A DNA stretch of 5,483 nucleotides from a virus: positions 1 through 5,483 of IMG/VR virus record IMGVR_UViG_3300045988_016400; one strand, written 5' to 3'. The notes below the pieces were generated by a model. The model saw only the letters and a program-made list of their open reading frames with translations, ran no database searches and had not been told where the DNA came from. This document shows positions 1 through 5,341 of the stretch, piece after piece. The position numbers were made by a program, and so were the translations under genes. The stretch's first letter is position 1. Every line of letters starts with the position of its first letter.

Positions 1-55
1 AAAATAACATAAAGTGATGTATATTTCAAGAAAACAATTGACATACATCAAATAA
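1..55. repeat. Terminal direct repeat. It is identical to 5429-5483 and marks the assembly overlap of a circular genome with a 5428-nt unit.
   Basis: Read directly: aaaataacataaagtgatgtatatttcaagaaaacaattgacatacatcaaataa occurs at both ends of the window, 55/55 identical. Confidence 0.95.
30..51 (+). repeat. Copy 1 of the 22-nt element gaaaaYaattgacatacatcaa. It contains TTGACA at 38-43 and is a candidate regulator-binding site or partial promoter.
   Basis: It matches 3994-4015 at 21/22 positions, with a 16-nt exact core (aattgacatacatcaa, 36-51 = 4000-4015). atacatca (43-50) is the reverse complement of tgatgtat (15-22). No good -10 hexamer lies 16-18 nt downstream; the best candidate is atgaat at 62-67. 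Confidence 0.6.
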
Positions 56-126
56 TGGATGATGAATGGACAGATGCAATCTGCGAAGCACTAAAAAAAT
101 ACGAACAACAATAAGAATACCACAAA

Positions 127-158
127 ACACAGGACAAAAAAAGTCTTGTGTTTTTTTT
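127..158 (+). terminator. Rho-independent terminator
   Basis: Stem acacaggac (127-135) pairs with gtcttgtgt (143-151), 9 bp including one G-T wobble. The loop is A7 (136-142) and a T run follows through 158. Confidence 0.75.
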
Positions 159-390
159 ATTTTTAGTAAAATTGACAAAAAAGGAGGCGATCATATGGAC
201 AACCGCTTTTAATCCGAACCGAAAAGAAATCATCCGAGTATACGTAGGAGTCGTGGAAATATGGGCGATCGAAGAACTGGCACAGGAGTACTTTGTAACA
301 CAGGGACGAGTCATCCGGGACGCTATCAAAGTTGCTCTGAAGCACAAAGAAGAGCTATACGAGCTGTTAAAGATGGATACCGAGATTTAA
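148..390 (+). CDS. Hypothetical small protein with ribbon-helix-helix-like sequence features. The true start is unresolved.
   Basis: This is a tracked ORF. Residues KEIIRVYVGVVEIWAIEELAQEYFVTQGRVIRDAIKVALKH read as a beta-strand, helix, G-x turn and helix, as in CopG/Arc/MetJ proteins. Its third-position T usage resembles VP1 by my hand count. The tracked GTG start at 148 lies inside the terminator T-tract, so it is unlikely to be real. The strong AGGAGG at 182-187 serves an out-of-frame ATG at 195 (see finding). Confidence 0.5.
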   Translation: MFFLFLVKLTKKEAIIWTTAFNPNRKEIIRVYVGVVEIWAIEELAQEYFVTQGRVIRDAIKVALKHKEELYELLKMDTEI

Positions 391-497
391 AAAAGGCCAG
401 GACACTTGGAGAAGCCGAAGCAATCGTCCGTGAGATCTACGAAGCCAAAGCAATCATCACAGAGGAGGAGCTAAAATGGCTAAAAGAGTCAAAATGA
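261..497 (+). CDS. Hypothetical protein or overlapping frame. Only the part from about 387 to 497 looks convincingly coding.
   Basis: This is a tracked ORF. ATG 261 has AGGAG (246-250) 10 nt upstream. The N-terminal 42 codons overlap 148-390 and have atypically many T-ending codons. The C-terminal part (LKKARTLGEAEAIVREIYEAKAIITEEELKWLKESK) is helix-like with typical codon usage but has no ATG/GTG/TTG of its own. Confidence 0.35.
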   Translation: MGDRRTGTGVLCNTGTSHPGRYQSCSEAQRRAIRAVKDGYRDLKKARTLGEAEAIVREIYEAKAIITEEELKWLKESK

Positions 498-595
498 AGC
501 CCAGGAAAGACCAGAAAGTCTTTTCCAACACCGCAAAGAAAACCAAATCCATCAACATCACGCCAAAAATCATGCGTGGTGGTACGAGACTGTAA
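476..595 (+). CDS. Small basic DNA-binding/packaging peptide (gokushovirus ORF8/VP8-like, functional analogue of phiX174 J)
   Basis: Hand translation gives MAKRVKMKPRKDQKVFSNTAKKTKSINITPKIMRGGTRL, 39 aa and very K/R rich. The C-terminal MRGGxRL motif is one I recall from gokushovirus small basic proteins. GAGGAGGAG (461-469) lies 6 nt upstream of the ATG. The ORF is below the length cut-off of the ORF track. Confidence 0.75.
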   Translation: MAKRVKMKPRKDQKVFSNTAKKTKSINITPKIMRGGTRL

Positions 596-887: not shown

Positions 888-1356
888 TCGACCCGACACG
901 ATCGCAGCACCTGAAGGTACCAGCACAGAGCCGAAATACATGGAAGCGATCGACGAAAACGGACACAGAACACTGGAACAGACCGGAGAAACCGACACTT
1001 ACGCCATGATCCAAGCAAGTCTCGAAGAAACCAAAATCGAAAACATCATCCGAAGAGCCACGCTGGGCGATCCGACCGCACTCACGCAAACCATGGGCGC
1101 ATACGTGGACACGACCGACATGCCAACAAGTCTGGCCGAAATGCAGAACGCCATTATCACGATCGAAAACGAGTTCAACAAACTGCCTCTCGAAACACGC
1201 TTAAAATTTAACCAAAGTCCGGAAAAATATATCTCTATGTACGGCACAGAAGAATGGGCCAAAATCATGGGATATGAAAAAATTCAGCAGAATGCACAAA
1301 AAACAACGACGAATTCGCACGACGAGGATCTGCAGAAAGGAGAAAATAAAGAATGA
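850..1356 (+). CDS. VP3: Internal scaffolding protein VP3
   Basis: The ORF is 168 aa. Its C-terminal half (SLAEMQNAIITIENEFNKLPLETRLKFNQSPEKYISMY) matches the conserved gokushovirus VP3 motif (F..LP.e.R..Fn.sPe.f). It sits immediately upstream of VP1, with its stop overlapping the VP1 start (ATGA at 1353-1356). Confidence 0.85.
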   Translation: MPKTEVHIWSRFDRPDTIAAPEGTSTEPKYMEAIDENGHRTLEQTGETDTYAMIQASLEETKIENIIRRATLGDPTALTQTMGAYVDTTDMPTSLAEMQNAIITIENEFNKLPLETRLKFNQSPEKYISMYGTEEWAKIMGYEKIQQNAQKTTTNSHDEDLQKGENKE

Positions 1357-3107
1357 ACCGCAATTCCGAAAGCCATTTCGCACAGATTCCGCATGCAGAC
1401 ATCAGCCGATCAAAGTTCTATCGGAACTCAGACCACAAAACAACATTCAACGCCGGACAGCTCATCCCAATCTACTGTGATGAAGTCTTACCGGGAGACA
1501 CTCACCAGATGGACATGAGCGCACTGATCCGCATGAGCACACCGATCTTTCCGACCATGGACAATCTGTTCTGTGATTTTTACTTCTTCTTCGTGCCAAA
1601 CCGTCTGGTGTGGAACCACTGGAAAGAATTCATGGGCGAAAACACAGAAAGTTACTGGACGCAACCGACAGAATACCAAGTACCAATCATTGACACAGAA
1701 ACAGATAAAAACAAAAACGAAAACTTAAAAGGAACCCAAACAGGCACCACACTCGACTACTTCGGTATACCGACAGGGATAGACGGACTAAAAATCAACG
1801 CACTACCTCAACGAGCATACCAGCTCATCTGGAACGAGTGGTTTAGAGACCAAAATATACAGCAGCCCTGCGAAATACCACTTGACGAAACAACCGTAAA
1901 GCTAAAAAGCACCGAATATGAAAAACACAACTCAAAAGAAGCATACGATTATTTTAAAAAAAATTACGTAACAAAAGCAAAAGAGGGTTATGCACCTCTT
2001 CCGGTCAACAAGTACCACGACTACTTCACGTCCTGTCTGCCGCAGCCACAGAAAGGCACAGCCGTACTGCTGCCGATAAGCGGAAACGCACCAATCAGGT
2101 CATACATCGACGAAAATATGACACAGCAAGCAGTCGCAATCGGAAAATCACCTAATTACTACTCACCATGGACATGGGGAGGCACAGAAGCAGAGCTAAC
2201 ACAGACCTACGACCTTAAAGAACCGCCTAATTTCTTCCAGAGCAGAATGCTGGGAAAAGCCAAAGAGGGCTACGAATTCGTAACACAAGAAAACAAAAAC
2301 CCAACTAAAACAGCTTATATCGGCGCAGACCTGAGCGCAGTCACAGGCGCAACAATCAACCAGCTCCGTCAAGCATTCCAGATTCAAAAACTTTTGGAAC
2401 GGGATGCACGAGGCGGAACCAGATACACCGAAATTCTGAAAGCACACTTCAACGTAACATCTCCAGATTCTCGCCAGCAACGACCGGAATACCTAGGCGG
2501 ATACCGAATGCCGATCAACATCACGCAGGTGGTGCAGAACAGTGAAACCACGGCAACCAGTCCGCAGGGCAACACCGCAGCATTTTCAGTCAGCGGCATG
2601 AATAAGAGCATGTTCACAAAGAGCTTTACCGAGCACGGATACATCATCGGACTGGCAGCGGTCAGAACCGAACACACGTATCAACAGGGCATTGAGCGCA
2701 TGTGGAGCCGTAAAGGCCGCTATGACTTCTACTGGCCGGAACTTGCGAACATCGGAGAACAGGCAGTCCTAAACAAGGAAATCTATGCACAGGGCACGGA
2801 CGCAGATGAAGAGGCATTCGGCTACCAAGAGGCATGGGCCGATTATCGGTACAAGCCGAGCCGAGTGTCTGGCGATATGCGTTCAAACTATAAACAAACG
2901 CTGGACAGCTGGCACTATGCCGACTACTACGCCGAACAGCCGAAACTGTCAAGTCAATGGATGATGGAGACCATGAACAACATCGACCGCACGCTTGCAG
3001 TACAGTCGAGCGTAGAAGACCAGTTTATCGCAGACTTCTATTTCAAAGCACAGACCACGAGACCGATGCCTGTTTACAGTGTGCCGGGCCTTATCGACCA
3101 TCACTAA
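1353..3107 (+). CDS. VP1: Major capsid protein VP1 (phiX174 F-protein family)
   Basis: The ORF is 584 aa. The N-terminus SHFAQIPHADISRSKFYRNSDHKTTFNAGQLIPIYCDEVLPGDT, and the segments INQLRQAFQIQKLLERDARGGTRYTEILKAHF and RPEYLGG, are hallmark Microviridae capsid sequences. AAGGAG lies at 1337-1342. Confidence 0.97.
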   Translation: MNRNSESHFAQIPHADISRSKFYRNSDHKTTFNAGQLIPIYCDEVLPGDTHQMDMSALIRMSTPIFPTMDNLFCDFYFFFVPNRLVWNHWKEFMGENTESYWTQPTEYQVPIIDTETDKNKNENLKGTQTGTTLDYFGIPTGIDGLKINALPQRAYQLIWNEWFRDQNIQQPCEIPLDETTVKLKSTEYEKHNSKEAYDYFKKNYVTKAKEGYAPLPVNKYHDYFTSCLPQPQKGTAVLLPISGNAPIRSYIDENMTQQAVAIGKSPNYYSPWTWGGTEAELTQTYDLKEPPNFFQSRMLGKAKEGYEFVTQENKNPTKTAYIGADLSAVTGATINQLRQAFQIQKLLERDARGGTRYTEILKAHFNVTSPDSRQQRPEYLGGYRMPINITQVVQNSETTATSPQGNTAAFSVSGMNKSMFTKSFTEHGYIIGLAAVRTEHTYQQGIERMWSRKGRYDFYWPELANIGEQAVLNKEIYAQGTDADEEAFGYQEAWADYRYKPSRVSGDMRSNYKQTLDSWHYADYYAEQPKLSSQWMMETMNNIDRTLAVQSSVEDQFIADFYFKAQTTRPMPVYSVPGLIDHH

Positions 3108-3167: not shown

Positions 3168-4001
3168 ATGGGACTCTTAGGAAAAATCGCCGGAGCGGTG
3201 ATTCCAAGCGTTGTAAACTGGGGATTAGGGCAAATCTTCGGAGGAGGAGCCAACAGCACAACCCAAGGAGCCAGTCAAAGCCAAGGCGGAAGCACCACGG
3301 AAAGCCAGAGCGGAACAAACGACCAGTTTAACGCAGAGCAAGCACAGCTCAACCGGGACTATCAGACCATGAGCCAGGCGATCCAGGGCAACTACAACAT
3401 GAAAAGCATGCTCATGAGTATGGGCTACAACACCATGGGCGCCATCATGCAGGGCGTGTACAACGGAATCAGCCAAAAAGCAGCCATGAACTACAACAGC
3501 GCTGAGGCAGCAGCAAACAGAGCTTGGCAGACCGAAATGAGCAACACAGCCTATCAGAGAGCTGTACAGGACTTGAAAGCAGCAGGCCTTAACCCGATCT
3601 TAGCAGCACTCCACGGGGGAGCCGTCACAGGCTCAGGAGCATACGGCAGCTCAGGAGCCAGCACGATCGGAGCACCGAGCGCCAGTGCAGCAAGCATCTC
3701 AGCCATGCCAGGCACGTCAACACCATCAAGCCAATGGAGCTGGTCAAAGGGCGAAAGCTGGAACCAGAGCACAGCCTATAACATGGGCGAATCCATTATG
3801 CGATACTACGCAGACCCGAACACCAGCGCAAAGAACCTCAAAGAGACAGGAGACAAAGTTGTAAAAGCCGGCAAAGAGGCAGGCGAGCAGATCCAAAAAG
3901 CACTCGAACCAGCCAGAAAGTGGACAGACAACATTGGACTCACTGCACCAGAGGGAGGAGCAAAAGCAGCCTGGGAGAGCAGGCAGAAACATAGAAAATA
4001 A
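3168..4001 (+). CDS. VP2: DNA pilot / minor capsid protein VP2 (phiX174 H analogue)
   Basis: The ORF is 277 aa. It has a hydrophobic Gly-rich N-terminus, a Q/S/N-rich region, and the motif WQTEMSNTAYQRAVQDLKAAGLNPILA that is characteristic of gokushovirus VP2. AGGAGG (3154-3159) lies 8 nt before the ATG. Confidence 0.9.
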   Translation: MGLLGKIAGAVIPSVVNWGLGQIFGGGANSTTQGASQSQGGSTTESQSGTNDQFNAEQAQLNRDYQTMSQAIQGNYNMKSMLMSMGYNTMGAIMQGVYNGISQKAAMNYNSAEAAANRAWQTEMSNTAYQRAVQDLKAAGLNPILAALHGGAVTGSGAYGSSGASTIGAPSASAASISAMPGTSTPSSQWSWSKGESWNQSTAYNMGESIMRYYADPNTSAKNLKETGDKVVKAGKEAGEQIQKALEPARKWTDNIGLTAPEGGAKAAWESRQKHRK

Positions 4002-4015
4002 TTGACATACATCAA
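3994..4015 (+). repeat. Copy 2 of the 22-nt element gaaaaYaattgacatacatcaa. It overlaps the VP2 stop codon and supplies the -35 box of the promoter.
   Basis: It matches 30-51 at 21/22 positions, with an exact 16-nt core at 4000-4015. Confidence 0.85.
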
Positions 4016-4030
4016 GAACAGGTGTATAAT
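4002..4030 (+). promoter_or_regulatory. Consensus sigma70/sigmaA-type promoter for the RHH ORF, and probably for VP4 as well
   Basis: TTGACA (4002-4007), an exactly 17-nt spacer, then TATAAT (4025-4030). This is followed by AGGAGG (4038-4043) and ATG 4052. I found no other full consensus promoter in the genome. Confidence 0.8.
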
Positions 4031-4051: not shown

Positions 4052-4219
4052 ATGAAATGCACAGTCAGAAGAATCAACGTGAATCTCACAGAGAAAGAAA
4101 ACAAAGCACTCAAACAGACGGCAAAAGCCATGGGAGAAAAGGAAAGTGAGATCGTACGCAAAGCAATCATGAGTTTTACCAGTTCTGTTAAAGATTTACA
4201 GGGAAATATTGGTCAGTAA
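4052..4219 (+). CDS. Ribbon-helix-helix (CopG/Arc/MetJ-like) DNA-binding protein, 55 aa
   Basis: Hand translation gives MKCTVRRINVNLTEKENKALKQTAKAMGEKESEIVRKAIMSFTSSVKDLQGNIGQ. It reads as a beta-strand (RRINVNL), helix A (TEKENKALKQTAKAMG) and helix B (SEIVRKAIMSF), the classic RHH layout. It has a perfect SD 8 nt upstream and a consensus promoter. It is absent from the ORF track because it is under 60 aa. Confidence 0.75.
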   Translation: MKCTVRRINVNLTEKENKALKQTAKAMGEKESEIVRKAIMSFTSSVKDLQGNIGQ

Positions 4220-4300: not shown

Positions 4301-5341
4301 GTGAAGACCGATTTGGGCTGCAAATTTCCAATTGTGCAAGACACAATGACAGGCAGATTTTTGAAAGAATACGAAGGACATCTATACTACAAGTGGAACG
4401 ATTTCAATGGAACATCGCCAAAAGCAATCATCACTGACGCACGTTACCGACTCATTCCGTGCGGTAGGTGTACCGAGTGCCGATTAGCATACTCGAGAGA
4501 GTGGGCAAACCGATGCGTTCTCGAGTCGCTCATGTACAAGTCAAACTGGTTCGTAACACTGACCTACAACCCTGAACAGATTCCAACACTAAGGCTTGAC
4601 ACAGGAGAACTGTACAGAGGAGGTGTACAAGAAGTTCAAAATGGCAAAGTGCTGGTGTCTAACACGCTGTTCCATGACGACGTGCAGAAATTCCTCAAAA
4701 GACTGAGATTCCACCTTGCAAAAGCTAGAGAACCAGAAATCCGATACTACATGTGTGGAGAGTATGGCAGCACGACACAACGACCACACTACCACATGAT
4801 CATCTACAATCTGAGCGTGCCGGATCTCGAATTCTACAAGCTCAACGAACTACATCAACCATACTTCCAAAGCAAATGGCTTGAGGACATCTGGGGACAC
4901 GGATTCATAACACTCGGAGAGGTAAACTGGAACACATGTGCTTACGTGGCAAGATACATCATGAAAAAAGTGAAAGGAGATAAAGCAGAAGAATTTTATA
5001 AAAGCATCGGAAAAACACCAGAATATACAAGAATGAGTTTAAAACCAGGAATAGGAGAAAAATACTATGAACTGAATAAAGAACAGATCTATAAATTTGA
5101 TCAAATTATTATCCCAGGAAAACAAGCAAAAAAAGTACAACCGTCAAAATATTTCGACAAGCTGTATGATATAGAAAATCCAGAAAGGATGCAGGAAATC
5201 AAAAAAGCACGTGAAAAAAATGCACGCCTTGCTCAGCAGCTCAAGTTAAGCAAAACCACAAAGGAACTGTGGGAACAGCTTAAAATAGAGCACGAAGCCA
5301 AACAAGACGCTTACAAAAAACTGATAAGACCGCTAGAATAG
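4301..5341 (+). CDS. VP4: Replication initiation protein VP4 (HUH rolling-circle endonuclease, phiX174 A-protein family)
   Basis: The ORF contains a Cys cluster (PCGRCTECR), RCR motif I (FVTLTY, nt 4550-4567), the HUH motif (PHYHMII, with HYH at nt 4787-4795), and a double-tyrosine motif (YVARYIMKK, tyrosines at nt 4943-4945 and 4955-4957) like phiX174 A. The start is uncertain among GTG 4301 (abuts the SD), TTG 4313 and ATG 4346. Confidence 0.95.
   Translation: MKTDLGCKFPIVQDTMTGRFLKEYEGHLYYKWNDFNGTSPKAIITDARYRLIPCGRCTECRLAYSREWANRCVLESLMYKSNWFVTLTYNPEQIPTLRLDTGELYRGGVQEVQNGKVLVSNTLFHDDVQKFLKRLRFHLAKAREPEIRYYMCGEYGSTTQRPHYHMIIYNLSVPDLEFYKLNELHQPYFQSKWLEDIWGHGFITLGEVNWNTCAYVARYIMKKVKGDKAEEFYKSIGKTPEYTRMSLKPGIGEKYYELNKEQIYKFDQIIIPGKQAKKVQPSKYFDKLYDIENPERMQEIKKAREKNARLAQQLKLSKTTKELWEQLKIEHEAKQDAYKKLIRPLE

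What the first reader, a model, noticed from the sequence alone, without database searches (positions are those of the whole stretch)
195..497. Gene whose coding signal changes frame twice at short T runs (+1 at 207-210, -1 at 386-388)
The best translation-initiation site in this region is AGGAGG at 182-187 followed by ATG at 195. It opens only a 5-codon ORF (MDNRF) that ends in ttt taa within a T4 run (207-210). Skipping one T continues into the frame of ORF 148-390, which otherwise has no credible start because its GTG at 148 lies in the terminator T-tract. That frame ends at att taa (385-390). Re-reading one T of the T3 run (386-388) continues into the frame of 261-497, which is the same frame as ATG 195. 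That downstream part reads LKKARTLGEAEAIVREIYEAKAIITEEELKWLKESK and has no start codon of its own. By my hand count, about 7 of 59 codons end in T in the middle frame (211-387). The figure is about 14 of 42 in the competing frame over 261-386, and about 8 of the first 50 codons in VP1, so the middle frame looks like the real one. The two shifts together would give a single protein of about 100 aa with an RHH-like core. There are three explanations. Two compensating homopolymer-length errors may exist in the assembly. There may be genuine recoding, since UUU-UAA is a plausible shifty-stop +1 site, although the -1 site has poor tRNA re-pairing. Or these may be separate overlapping genes with unusual starts.
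Basis: partly seen in the sequence, partly recalled or inferred. Interest (0 to 1): 0.62.

Follow-up and report, generated by a model that had tools for sequence, protein, structure and literature searches.

The report
Microvirus regulator gene needing a +1 frameshift
In a small gut ssDNA phage, a conserved 5-codon ORF ending in UUU-UAA runs straight into a DNA-binding-like gene in the +1 frame, which is best explained by a programmed +1 ribosomal frameshift; the supposed second (-1) shift is really the overlap with a separate 78-residue gene.

Summary
They are not assembly errors: 26 independent records (10 haplotypes, 3 deep lineages, up to about 20% nucleotide divergence) align without gaps and keep the same frame structure.

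Junction 1 (207-212):
- All haplotypes keep SD + ATG/GTG195, the peptide MD(N/A)RF with frame-0 synonymous changes, TTTT, and TAA/TAG.
- Frame +1 constraint starts right after TTTT.
- A canonical frame +1 start at the SD exists in only 4 of 10 haplotypes, and is absent from the window.
- A +1 shift at UUU_UAR is the only route common to all 10. It would give a 64-aa RHH-like protein.

Junction 2 (386-390):
- The T3 run is not conserved (ATY TRA, all four combinations), and there is no slippery site.
- Frame 0 is already under selection from about 333, where variability falls to 12%, as expected for dual coding.
- The frame-0 part belongs to an independent 78-aa gene. It has ATG261, a GGAG 10 nt upstream, a disordered N-terminus and three confident helices.
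- This gene is probably a diverged member of a stand-alone ~75-aa gokushovirus ORF family that sits just upstream of the basic VP8-like gene.

No reads or expression data could be examined, so the frameshift remains an inference from comparative sequence data.

The parts
124..164 (+). Intrinsic terminator (12-bp stem and T-tract) that ends the upstream unit. GTG148 and TTG172 of the frame +1 ORF lie in or just after it.
   Evidence: The frame +1 reading of 172-195 is not conserved between haplotypes.
182..187 (+). Shine-Dalgarno AGGAGG serving the frame-0 start at 195 (spacer 7 nt).
   Evidence: Conserved as AGGAGG or AGAGGTGAT in all 10 haplotypes.
195..212 (+). ORF1, 5 codons + stop (MDNRF*), frame 0. 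Proposed N-terminus of the trans-frame protein.
   Evidence: ATG or GTG in 10/10 haplotypes. There are 8 variable sites: 4 synonymous in frame 0 and 0 in frame +1. CGC/CGT/AGA all encode Arg.
207..212 (+). Proposed +1 shift site UUU_UAA (UUU_UAG in two lineages). tRNA-Phe re-pairs perfectly from 207-209 to 208-210, with the 0-frame stop in the A site.
   Evidence: TTTT + TAA/TAG is invariant in 10/10 haplotypes, although TTC is the preferred Phe codon (63%). The coding constraint changes frame exactly here.
211..390 (+). ORF2 (gene X), frame +1, 59 codons + stop. An RHH-like small protein (beta IIRVYV, helix VEIWAIEELAQEY, helix GRVIRDAIKVALKHKEELYELL).
   Evidence: Over 213-321, 19 of 41 variable sites are synonymous in frame +1 against 1 in frame 0. 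No canonical frame +1 start sits near the SD in the window. NCBI TPA record DAX06527.1 names it 'PutA'. Pfam and PDB give no significant hit.
247..250 (+). GGAG, the likely SD of gene Y, 10 nt before ATG261.
   Evidence: GGAG is kept in 10/10 haplotypes while flanking synonymous sites vary. VP1 of this phage uses an 11-nt spacer.
261..497 (+). Gene Y, frame 0, 78 aa. The N-terminal ~26 residues are unconstrained and disordered. Residues 27-76 form three helices.
   Evidence: - ATG261 is kept through rare codons: ATA (11% of Ile) or TTA (12% of Leu).
- Over 391-475, 16 of 28 variable sites are synonymous in frame 0 against 2 in frame +1.
- AF2 gives pLDDT below 50 for residues 1-20 and 87-92 for 31-60.
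- hhalign against the stand-alone 75-aa gokushovirus ORF family gives P=2.1e-4.
- Gene callers call it as a gene in all lineages.
333..390 (+).
   Evidence: Only 7 variable sites in 58 nt (12%, against 33-40% in the flanks). Of these, 6 are synonymous in frame 0 and 3 in frame +1. The junction occurs as ATY TRA in all four combinations, which is Ile+stop in frame +1 and Leu in frame 0.
476..595 (+). Basic 39-aa VP8/J-like protein gene (frame 2). Its start overlaps the end of Y.
   Evidence: phrog_10695, E=1.7e-9. 20 of 26 variable sites are synonymous in frame 2. The overlap 476-497 has 1 variable site.

Best explanation
The region holds two overlapping genes, not one doubly shifted gene.

**Gene X (RHH-like regulator, 64 aa).**
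- Translation starts at the strong SD and ATG195 in frame 0.
- After five codons (MDNRF), peptidyl-tRNA-Phe sits on UUU(207-209) with the stop UAA in the A site.
- A fraction of ribosomes slip +1 onto UUU(208-210). They continue in frame +1 (AAU = Asn ...) to the stop at 388-390.
- Ribosomes that do not slip release the pentapeptide.
- The frameshift would therefore set a low level of X, possibly sensitive to release-factor activity.

**Gene Y (78 aa).**
- It starts independently at ATG261, with GGAG 10 nt upstream, in frame 0.
- Its first ~26 codons are overprinted on the RHH core of X and are unconstrained.
- Its folded three-helix part (nt ~339-490) overlaps the last 50 nt of X and the first 22 nt of the basic-protein gene.

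**What is shown and what is inferred.**
- Shown: the frames under selection, their boundaries, and the conservation of the signals.
- Inferred: that the ribosome actually shifts, at what efficiency, and the functions of X and Y.
For: **The structure is real.** The window and 25 other records give 10 haplotypes in 3 deep lineages, up to 87 differences in 419 nt, with no gaps.

**Frame-0 start.** ATG or GTG at 195 in 10/10 haplotypes.

**ORF1 is under amino-acid selection in frame 0.**
- The three lineages read GAC AAC CGC, GAT AAT CGT and GAC GCC AGA.
- These give D-N-R, D-N-R and D-A-R in frame 0. In frame +1 they give TTA, IIV and TPD.
- My rough estimate is P~1e-3 under no constraint.

**Shift site.** TTTT + TAA/TAG is invariant.

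**Frame switch.** Frame +1 selection begins at 214-217, directly after the site. NRKE is invariant, with synonymous changes at 216, 220 and 228.

**Frame +1 starts are inconsistent between haplotypes.**

| Haplotype(s) | Codon 193 in frame +1 |
|---|---|
| window | ATA |
| L032 | TTA |
| L031 | ATG |
| three others of group A | TTG |
| lineage C | CTG |
| lineage B | AAA, preceded by TGA |

- Window and L032 share ATG195 and have no frame +1 start. They differ at 26 of 419 nt.
- Within X they differ by 3 synonymous and 1 conservative change, so X is still under selection there.
- Within lineage C, the codons upstream of its internal ATG232 evolve synonymously in frame +1.

**Precedent.** UUU before a stop is a known +1 slippery codon. 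UUU_U replaces CUU_U in a minority of prfB genes (PMC5009743). UUU is among the next most slippery codons at the prfB site (PMC10885494).

**Gene Y is independent.**
- Variability drops to 12% over 333-390, with 6 of 7 changes synonymous in frame 0.
- AF2 order begins at residue 27.
- ATG261 is kept through rare codons.
- Y has the same length and the same position as a stand-alone 75-aa ORF family in other gokushoviruses. hhalign gives P=2.1e-4, against a control of P=0.46.
Against: - There is no expression, read or peptide data.
- There is no prfB-type SD-like stimulator 3 nt upstream of UUU, and no conserved 3' RNA structure.
- UAA-U is a strong terminator context in E. coli (my own knowledge).
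- Four of 10 haplotypes have ATG/TTG and three have CTG in frame +1 at codon 193, at good SD spacing. Lineage B has ATG214 one base after the stop. In most haplotypes X could therefore be started conventionally.
- Only three deep lineages exist, and no more distant homologues were found, so the number of independent observations is small.
- The RHH assignment of X is not confirmed by Pfam, PDB, hhalign or AF2.
- The SD spacing of Y (10 nt) is long, and its similarity to the 75-aa family is only 46% probability.
Confidence: 0.5

Rival explanations
1. There is no frameshift. X is initiated directly in frame +1 at codon 193 (ATG/TTG/CTG, 5-6 nt after the SD). The overlapping frame-0 GTG/ATG195 opens a competing 5-codon decoy ORF that tunes X initiation. 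Haplotypes such as the window (ATA) and L032 (TTA) make very little X, or use near-cognate initiation.
For: - Seven of 10 haplotypes have NTG at 193, and four of these are canonical.
- Gene callers produced 65-aa MWTTAF... products (P0029, P0030).
- The SD spacing fits.
Against: - The frame +1 residues 196-206 are not conserved (TTA/IIV/TPD), while frame 0 is.
- NTG follows automatically from GTG195 preceded by T.
- Lineage B has a TGA in frame +1 at 190-192 and AAA at 193.
- Window and L032 have no usable codon there, yet X stays under purifying selection.
- It does not explain why a decoy peptide keeps its amino-acid sequence.
Confidence: 0.2
2. MDNRF is a leader mini-ORF. After termination at 210-212, ribosomes reinitiate at a downstream frame +1 start: ATG214 in lineage B, ATG232 in lineage C, GTG253 in the window.
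For: - Lineage B has TAG-C-ATG, a classic coupling distance.
- Lineage C has ATG232, and the window has GTG253.
Against: - L032, L030 and L008 have no frame +1 ATG/GTG/TTG between 196 and 373.
- Starting at 253 would remove the conserved beta-strand.
- Frame +1 selection extends upstream of 232 within lineage C and upstream of 253 in lineage A.
- The start positions differ in every lineage.
Confidence: 0.1
3. One ~100-aa protein is made by +1 at 207-210 and -1 near the end of frame +1, either at the T3 run 386-388 or at the invariant A_AAG at 369-372.
For: - Frame 0 continues open and coding after the frame +1 stop.
- A_AAG (369-372) is a known single-tRNA -1 slippage motif in bacteria (PMC5009743) and is invariant here.
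Against: - The T3 run is absent in 7 of 10 haplotypes (ATCTGA, ATCTAA).
- tRNA-Ile cannot re-pair on GAU.
- There is no X_XXY_YYZ heptamer and no conserved structure.
- Frame 0 is already constrained over 339-368, upstream of both candidate sites: 3 of 4 changes are synonymous in frame 0 against 1 of 4 in frame +1.
- A conserved ATG261 and a homologous stand-alone gene family explain the frame-0 part.
Confidence: 0.07
4. Two compensating homopolymer-length errors in the assembly split one ordinary ORF.
For: Both junctions lie at short T runs in this window.
Against: - The frame structure is identical in 26 records from different samples, assemblers and sequencing projects.
- It persists across 10 haplotypes with up to 20% divergence and no length variation.
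- The second junction has four different sequences.
- Selection is visible in both frames across the overlap.
Confidence: 0.01

Closest known systems
prfB (release factor 2) programmed +1 frameshift, CUU_UGA (UUU_U in a minority of species)
   Same: - A short ORF1 ends in a slippery YUU codon followed by U of a stop.
- The P-site tRNA re-pairs +1.
- The functional protein is encoded mostly in the +1 frame.
- ORF2 lacks a start of its own.
- The site is conserved across relatives.
   Different: - ORF1 is only 5 codons, against ~25 in prfB.
- The stop is UAA or UAG, not the RF2-specific UGA, so there is no obvious autoregulation.
- There is no SD-like stimulator 3 nt upstream.
- The gene is a phage RHH-like regulator.
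- The shift is not demonstrated experimentally.
+1 frameshifts of Listeria phages PSA/A118-type (CCC_UGA in cps and tsh) and incidental +1 at the end of the pheL leader (CCC_UGA)
   Same: Shifty-stop +1 events in a phage or at the last codon of a very short leader ORF (PMC5009743).
   Different: - Those sites use CCC.
- The phage cases extend structural proteins at their C-termini rather than providing the only access to a gene.
- The pheL case is regarded as incidental.
Overprinted overlapping genes of Microviridae (phiX174 A/A*/B/K, D/E)
   Same: Gene Y overlaps X by 130 nt and the basic-protein gene by 22 nt. Nucleotide variability is suppressed in the overlaps.
   Different: The overlap here lies between an accessory RHH-like gene and a small helical protein of a gokushovirus lineage. 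No frameshift is known in the phiX174 cases.
Stand-alone ~75-aa ORF upstream of the VP8-like gene in gut gokushoviruses (e.g. MZ821031 746-973, KT264788-KT264792; unannotated or 'hypothetical')
   Same: - Same position, with the end overlapping the start of the basic protein.
- Same length (75-76 aa against 78 aa).
- Profile similarity over the C-terminal 44 residues (P=2.1e-4).
   Different: - The conserved N-terminal motif K[ST]WNVRDQT of that family is absent from Y. Y's N-terminus is free-running sequence dictated by gene X.
- Identity is only ~20%.
Ribbon-helix-helix regulators (CopG/Arc/PutA N-domain)
   Same: - X has the alternating hydrophobic strand, a helix, a G-x turn and a second helix.
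- The ...GRVIRDAIKVAL stretch resembles the ...S-x-lIReAl... signature.
- An automated TPA annotation names it PutA.
- The same genome has a second, better-scoring RHH gene upstream of Rep.
   Different: No significant Pfam, NCBIfam, PDB or hhalign match. The AF2 monomer model is low-confidence and all-helical.

Membership tests
Programmed +1 ribosomal frameshift at a shifty stop (prfB type) | The P-site codon allows re-pairing in the +1 frame (NNU_U run) | tested here: met
   UUU_U at 207-210 gives perfect re-pairing and is invariant in 10/10 haplotypes.
Programmed +1 ribosomal frameshift at a shifty stop (prfB type) | A slowly decoded 0-frame A-site codon (stop) directly after the slippery codon | tested here: met
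   TAA (lineage A) or TAG (lineages B and C) in all haplotypes.
Programmed +1 ribosomal frameshift at a shifty stop (prfB type) | Coding constraint switches from frame 0 to frame +1 at the site, and ORF2 has no conserved start | tested here: met
   - Synonymous changes fall in frame 0 over 195-206 and in frame +1 from 214-217.
- Frame +1 starts are inconsistent: none near the SD in the window, L032 or lineage B, CTG in lineage C, and ATG/TTG in 4 haplotypes.
Programmed +1 ribosomal frameshift at a shifty stop (prfB type) | SD-like stimulator about 3 nt 5' of the shift codon | tested here: not met
   The sequence upstream of TTT is ATGGACAACCGC. The only SD is the initiation SD, 19 nt upstream.
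Programmed +1 ribosomal frameshift at a shifty stop (prfB type) | A trans-frame protein product is observed | not testable with these tools
   There are no proteomic or expression data.
-1 programmed frameshift (X_XXY_YYZ plus 3' structure) | A slippery heptamer in the upstream frame at the junction | tested here: not met
   The junction reads GAG ATY TRA and contains no heptamer. The T3 run is absent in 7/10 haplotypes.
-1 programmed frameshift (X_XXY_YYZ plus 3' structure) | A conserved stimulatory RNA structure downstream | tested here: not met
   The fold of 300-480 has z = -0.37. The alifold of 380-480 gives -9.5 kcal/mol with no covariation, against a mean single-sequence energy of -17.7.
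Ribbon-helix-helix superfamily (gene X) | Significant match to an RHH profile or structure | tested here: inconclusive
   - Pfam gave no hit at E<=10.
- PDB profile search gave none.
- hhalign against the genome's own RHH gave E=0.068, but in the correct register.
- NCBIfam gave aCcr1 at E=0.067.
- AF2 gave pLDDT 64 and an all-helical model.
- A source names it 'PutA'.
Gokushovirus ~75-aa ORF family upstream of VP8 (gene Y) | Stand-alone ORF of ~75 aa with its own ATG and SD, whose end overlaps the start of the basic-protein gene | tested here: met
   Y is 78 aa, starts at ATG261 with GGAG 10 nt upstream, and ends at 497 against the VP8-like ATG476. The family layout was seen in 9 records.
Gokushovirus ~75-aa ORF family upstream of VP8 (gene Y) | Sequence homology | tested here: inconclusive
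   - hhalign of A3 against A5 gives P=2.1e-4, probability 46%, over 44 columns.
- The control with X gives P=0.46.
- tblastn with the window's protein found nothing.
Overlapping (overprinted) genes | Suppressed variability and purifying selection in both frames across the overlap | tested here: met
   - Over 333-390, 12% of sites vary, against 33-40% in the flanks.
- Of the 7 changes, 6 are synonymous in frame 0 and 3 in frame +1.
- The overlap 476-497 has 4.5% variable sites.

The most novel reading that the evidence does not exclude
The UUU_UAR site is a decoding fork that sets the ratio of two proteins from one SD. Ribosomes that slip +1 make the RHH-like regulator X. Ribosomes that terminate release the conserved pentapeptide and, staying in frame 0, reinitiate 48 nt downstream at ATG261 to make Y, and through Y the coupled basic protein. 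The X:Y ratio would then report the host's release-factor or termination capacity. That would be a translational sensor controlling a transcription factor in a 5.4-kb ssDNA phage.
Probability: 0.12. Interest if true: 0.8.

Novelty: new variant of a known kind. Interest (0 to 1): 0.55.

Why it matters
- In the papers searched here, no recoding event is described for Microviridae. These are among the smallest and best-studied DNA phages, and very abundant in the gut.
- A conserved +1 frameshift after only five codons, without the prfB-type SD stimulator, would be a minimal natural shifty-stop system. It would also show how a tiny genome regulates an accessory DNA-binding protein.
- There is a practical consequence. 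Gene callers either miss this gene or give it spurious starts inside the terminator, so the protein family is nearly invisible in databases. Only one 90% cluster was found among 5.8 billion proteins.
- Resolving the second junction as an overlap assigns the 78-aa ORF to a widespread, unannotated gokushovirus family.

Tried and rejected
- **Structure of the +1 fused 64-aa protein.** The fused sequence was not sent to any other tool afterwards. Only the frame +1 part (59 aa) was folded, and the model was low-confidence.
- **More distant relatives.** The following searches found nothing beyond the same clade:
  - word-based protein searches
  - the full HMMER scan of 1.84 billion representatives (only the own cluster plus two repetitive proteins)
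  - tblastn against 50,697 phage records
  - IMG/VR scans by protein, by Rep and by DNA pattern
  - the metagenome scan, which returned only CRISPR spacers
- **RNA stimulators.** Single-sequence folds and RNAalifold on 10 haplotypes showed nothing beyond shuffled controls or invariance.
- **Stop-codon readthrough of TAA210 into frame 0.** Rejected. Frame 0 over 213-260 has 0 of 19 synonymous changes, and lineage B has a further stop at 255.
- **TTG172 or GTG148 as the start of X, as gene callers chose.** Rejected. They have no SD and lie in or next to the terminator. The frame +1 reading of 172-195 is not conserved, and the frame is closed by TGA in lineage B.
- **Reinitiation at the Leu codon overlapping the frame +1 stop.** Rejected. 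That codon is TTA, CTA, CTG or TTG.
- **Fold search of Y against the PDB.** No match better than E=2.9.
- **Spacer search.** A BLAST of the phage against the fetched CRISPR loci of 80 genomes gave no hit.
Full report
**Context.** The window is a complete circular gokushovirus-type microvirus, an IMG/VR record with direct terminal repeats. Its genes are:
- the basic VP8-like protein, 476-595 (phrog_10695, E=1.7e-9)
- VP5, 609-887
- VP3, 850-1356
- VP1, 1353-3107
- VP2, 3168-4001
- a small RHH gene, 4052-4219 (weak RHH/Arc-like hits)
- Rep (VP4), 4301-5341

The finding lies between a strong terminator (124-154 plus T-tail) and the basic-protein gene.

**Observation.**
- AGGAGG at 182-187, then ATG195.
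- MDNRF followed by ttt taa, with the T4 run at 207-210.
- Frame +1 open to att taa at 385-390.
- Frame 0 open again from 213 to 497.

**Relatives.** Protein searches found only one small clade. From its members I fetched 25 contigs from different samples and assemblers.
- With the window they make 10 distinct haplotypes.
- These fall into three deep lineages. Lineage A contains the window, L032, L031, L030, L008 and L015. Lineage C contains L006, L024 and L027. Lineage B is L002.
- They differ at up to 87 of 419 positions and align without a single gap over 182-600.
- This alone removes the assembly-error explanation.

**Which frame is under selection where.** Counts are over the 10 haplotypes.

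| Region | Variable sites | Synonymous in frame 0 | Synonymous in frame +1 | Synonymous in frame 2 |
|---|---|---|---|---|
| 195-212 | 8 | 4 | 0 | 0 |
| 213-321 | 41 | 1 | 19 | 3 |
| 322-390 | 9 (13% of sites) | 6 | 5 | 0 |
| 391-475 | 28 | 16 | 2 | 0 |
| 476-497 | 1 | 1 | 0 | 0 |
| 498-595 | 26 | 1 | 0 | 20 |

The first change is sharp and lies at TTTT. The second is a 60-nt zone in which both frames are constrained.

**Junction 1.** All 10 haplotypes keep a frame-0 start (ATG in three, GTG in seven), TTTT, and a stop (TAA or TAG).
- ORF1 reads MDNRF in lineages A and C and MDARF in lineage B.
- Its substitutions are GAC to GAT, AAC to AAT, CGC to CGT and CGC to AGA. These preserve the frame-0 peptide.
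- In frame +1 the same substitutions turn TTA into IIV or TPD.
- By my own rough calculation this pattern has a probability of about 1e-3 without frame-0 selection.
- Frame +1 selection starts at 214-217. NRKE is invariant, with synonymous changes at 216, 220 and 228.

A frame +1 start is not conserved.
- Codon 193 is ATA (window), TTA (L032), ATG (L031), TTG (L030, L008, L015), CTG (lineage C), or AAA preceded by an in-frame TGA (lineage B).
- Downstream frame +1 starts sit at different places: ATG214 in lineage B, ATG232 in lineage C, GTG253 in the window and L031. L032, L030 and L008 have none.
- Within lineage C, the codons upstream of ATG232 still evolve synonymously in frame +1.
- Window and L032 share ATG195 and lack any frame +1 start near the SD. 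They have diverged by 26 nt, yet differ in X by only three synonymous and one conservative change.
- TTG172 and GTG148, which gene callers used, have no SD, and their frame +1 reading is not conserved.

The one route to X that works in every haplotype has three steps:
- Initiation at codon 195.
- Slippage of tRNA-Phe from UUU(207-209) to UUU(208-210), with the stop in the A site.
- Continued reading in frame +1.

Supporting and opposing points:
- UUU followed by U of a stop is a recognised +1 site. UUU_U replaces CUU_U in a minority of prfB genes (PMC5009743). UUU ranks among the next most slippery codons at that site (PMC10885494).
- Against it: no SD-like stimulator lies 3 nt upstream, and no conserved downstream structure exists.
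- Also against it: most haplotypes could in principle start X at NTG193.

I put the +1 frameshift at roughly 0.55.

**Junction 2.** The junction occurs as ATT TAA, ATC TGA, ATC TAA and ATT TGA.
- In frame +1 all four read Ile plus stop. In frame 0 they read Leu (TTA, CTG, CTA or TTG).
- Both frames are therefore being read here, and the T3 run is dispensable.
- There is no slippery heptamer, tRNA-Ile cannot re-pair on GAU, and no structure stands out.
- Frame 0 is constrained from about 333-341. Over 333-390, 6 of 7 changes are synonymous in frame 0.

Entry into frame 0 must therefore lie upstream, and ATG261 is the only canonical start.
- ATG261 is present in all haplotypes. It is maintained by rare codons in frame +1: ATA, which is 11% of Ile codons, and TTA in lineage B, which is 12% of Leu codons.
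- It is preceded by an invariant GGAG 10 nt upstream. VP1 of this phage uses an 11-nt spacer.
- AlphaFold2 of the 78-aa product gives a disordered N-terminus (pLDDT below 50 for residues 1-20). It gives helices at 27-45, 49-63 and 68-76, with pLDDT 87-92 over residues 31-60.
- The folded part therefore starts where frame-0 selection starts.

Other gut gokushoviruses carry a related gene at the same place. Examples are MZ821031, KT264788-KT264792 and MG945233/381/383/657.
- It is a stand-alone ~75-aa ORF with its own ATG, directly upstream of and overlapping the basic-protein gene.
- A profile of nine members matches Y residues 32-75 with P=2.1e-4 and 46% probability.
- The control with X gives P=0.46.

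Y is thus best read as an independent gene whose N-terminal third has been overprinted by X.

**What X and Y are.**
- X has the strand-helix-helix pattern of RHH proteins, and an automated TPA record names it PutA.
- No profile, structure or model confirms this, so RHH remains a reasoned guess.
- Y is a small helical protein with no informative match.

**Verdict.**
- The first shift is plausible and comparatively well supported, but unproven.
- The second shift is replaced by a gene overlap.

The papers I searched describe no ribosomal frameshift in Microviridae. If confirmed, this would be a new, minimal variant of the shifty-stop +1 mechanism.

Noticed in passing
L010 1000-1045 and L009 ~894-940 (protospacer = window ~231-275, lineage C sequence): Two metagenome contigs are CRISPR arrays with the repeat GGATCACCCCCGCGYRTGCGGGGAAAAG and a 61-nt period. 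One unusually long spacer (~46 nt) matches the X gene of lineage C almost exactly. The same repeat occurs in 92 stretches of Faecalibacterium, Ruminococcus and other Oscillospiraceae/Clostridia genomes. This points to Oscillospirales as the host group. No matching spacer was found in those fetched stretches.
   Followed up: partly
L126 746-973, L127-L134 ~692-928 (other gokushoviruses): A conserved but mostly unannotated ~75-aa ORF (M..K[ST]WNVRDQT...YK.LRK...AKK..DEIW) lies just upstream of the basic VP8-like gene in at least 27 phage records. In many of these it is preceded by a conserved 38-aa ORF (MALISIKDVKQAI..ILEKLDEIYHA).
   Followed up: partly
window 55-114: The 19-codon ORF MDDEWTDAICEALKKYEQQ matches MZ821031 at 89.6% nucleotide identity. 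There the same residues (DDEWTDAICEKLKEYE) form the C-terminal part of a 61-aa ORF. The window's tiny ORF may therefore be a remnant or a shortened version of a longer gene.
   Followed up: no
L002-L004, between the basic-protein stop and the VP5 start (window ~596-608): Lineage B carries an extra ~60 nt here and starts the basic-protein gene with GTG instead of ATG.
   Followed up: no
window 38-51 and 4004-4016: The duplicated TTGACATACATCA element noted by earlier readers is a natural candidate operator for one of the two RHH-like proteins (X, or the 4052-4219 product). This was not tested.
   Followed up: no
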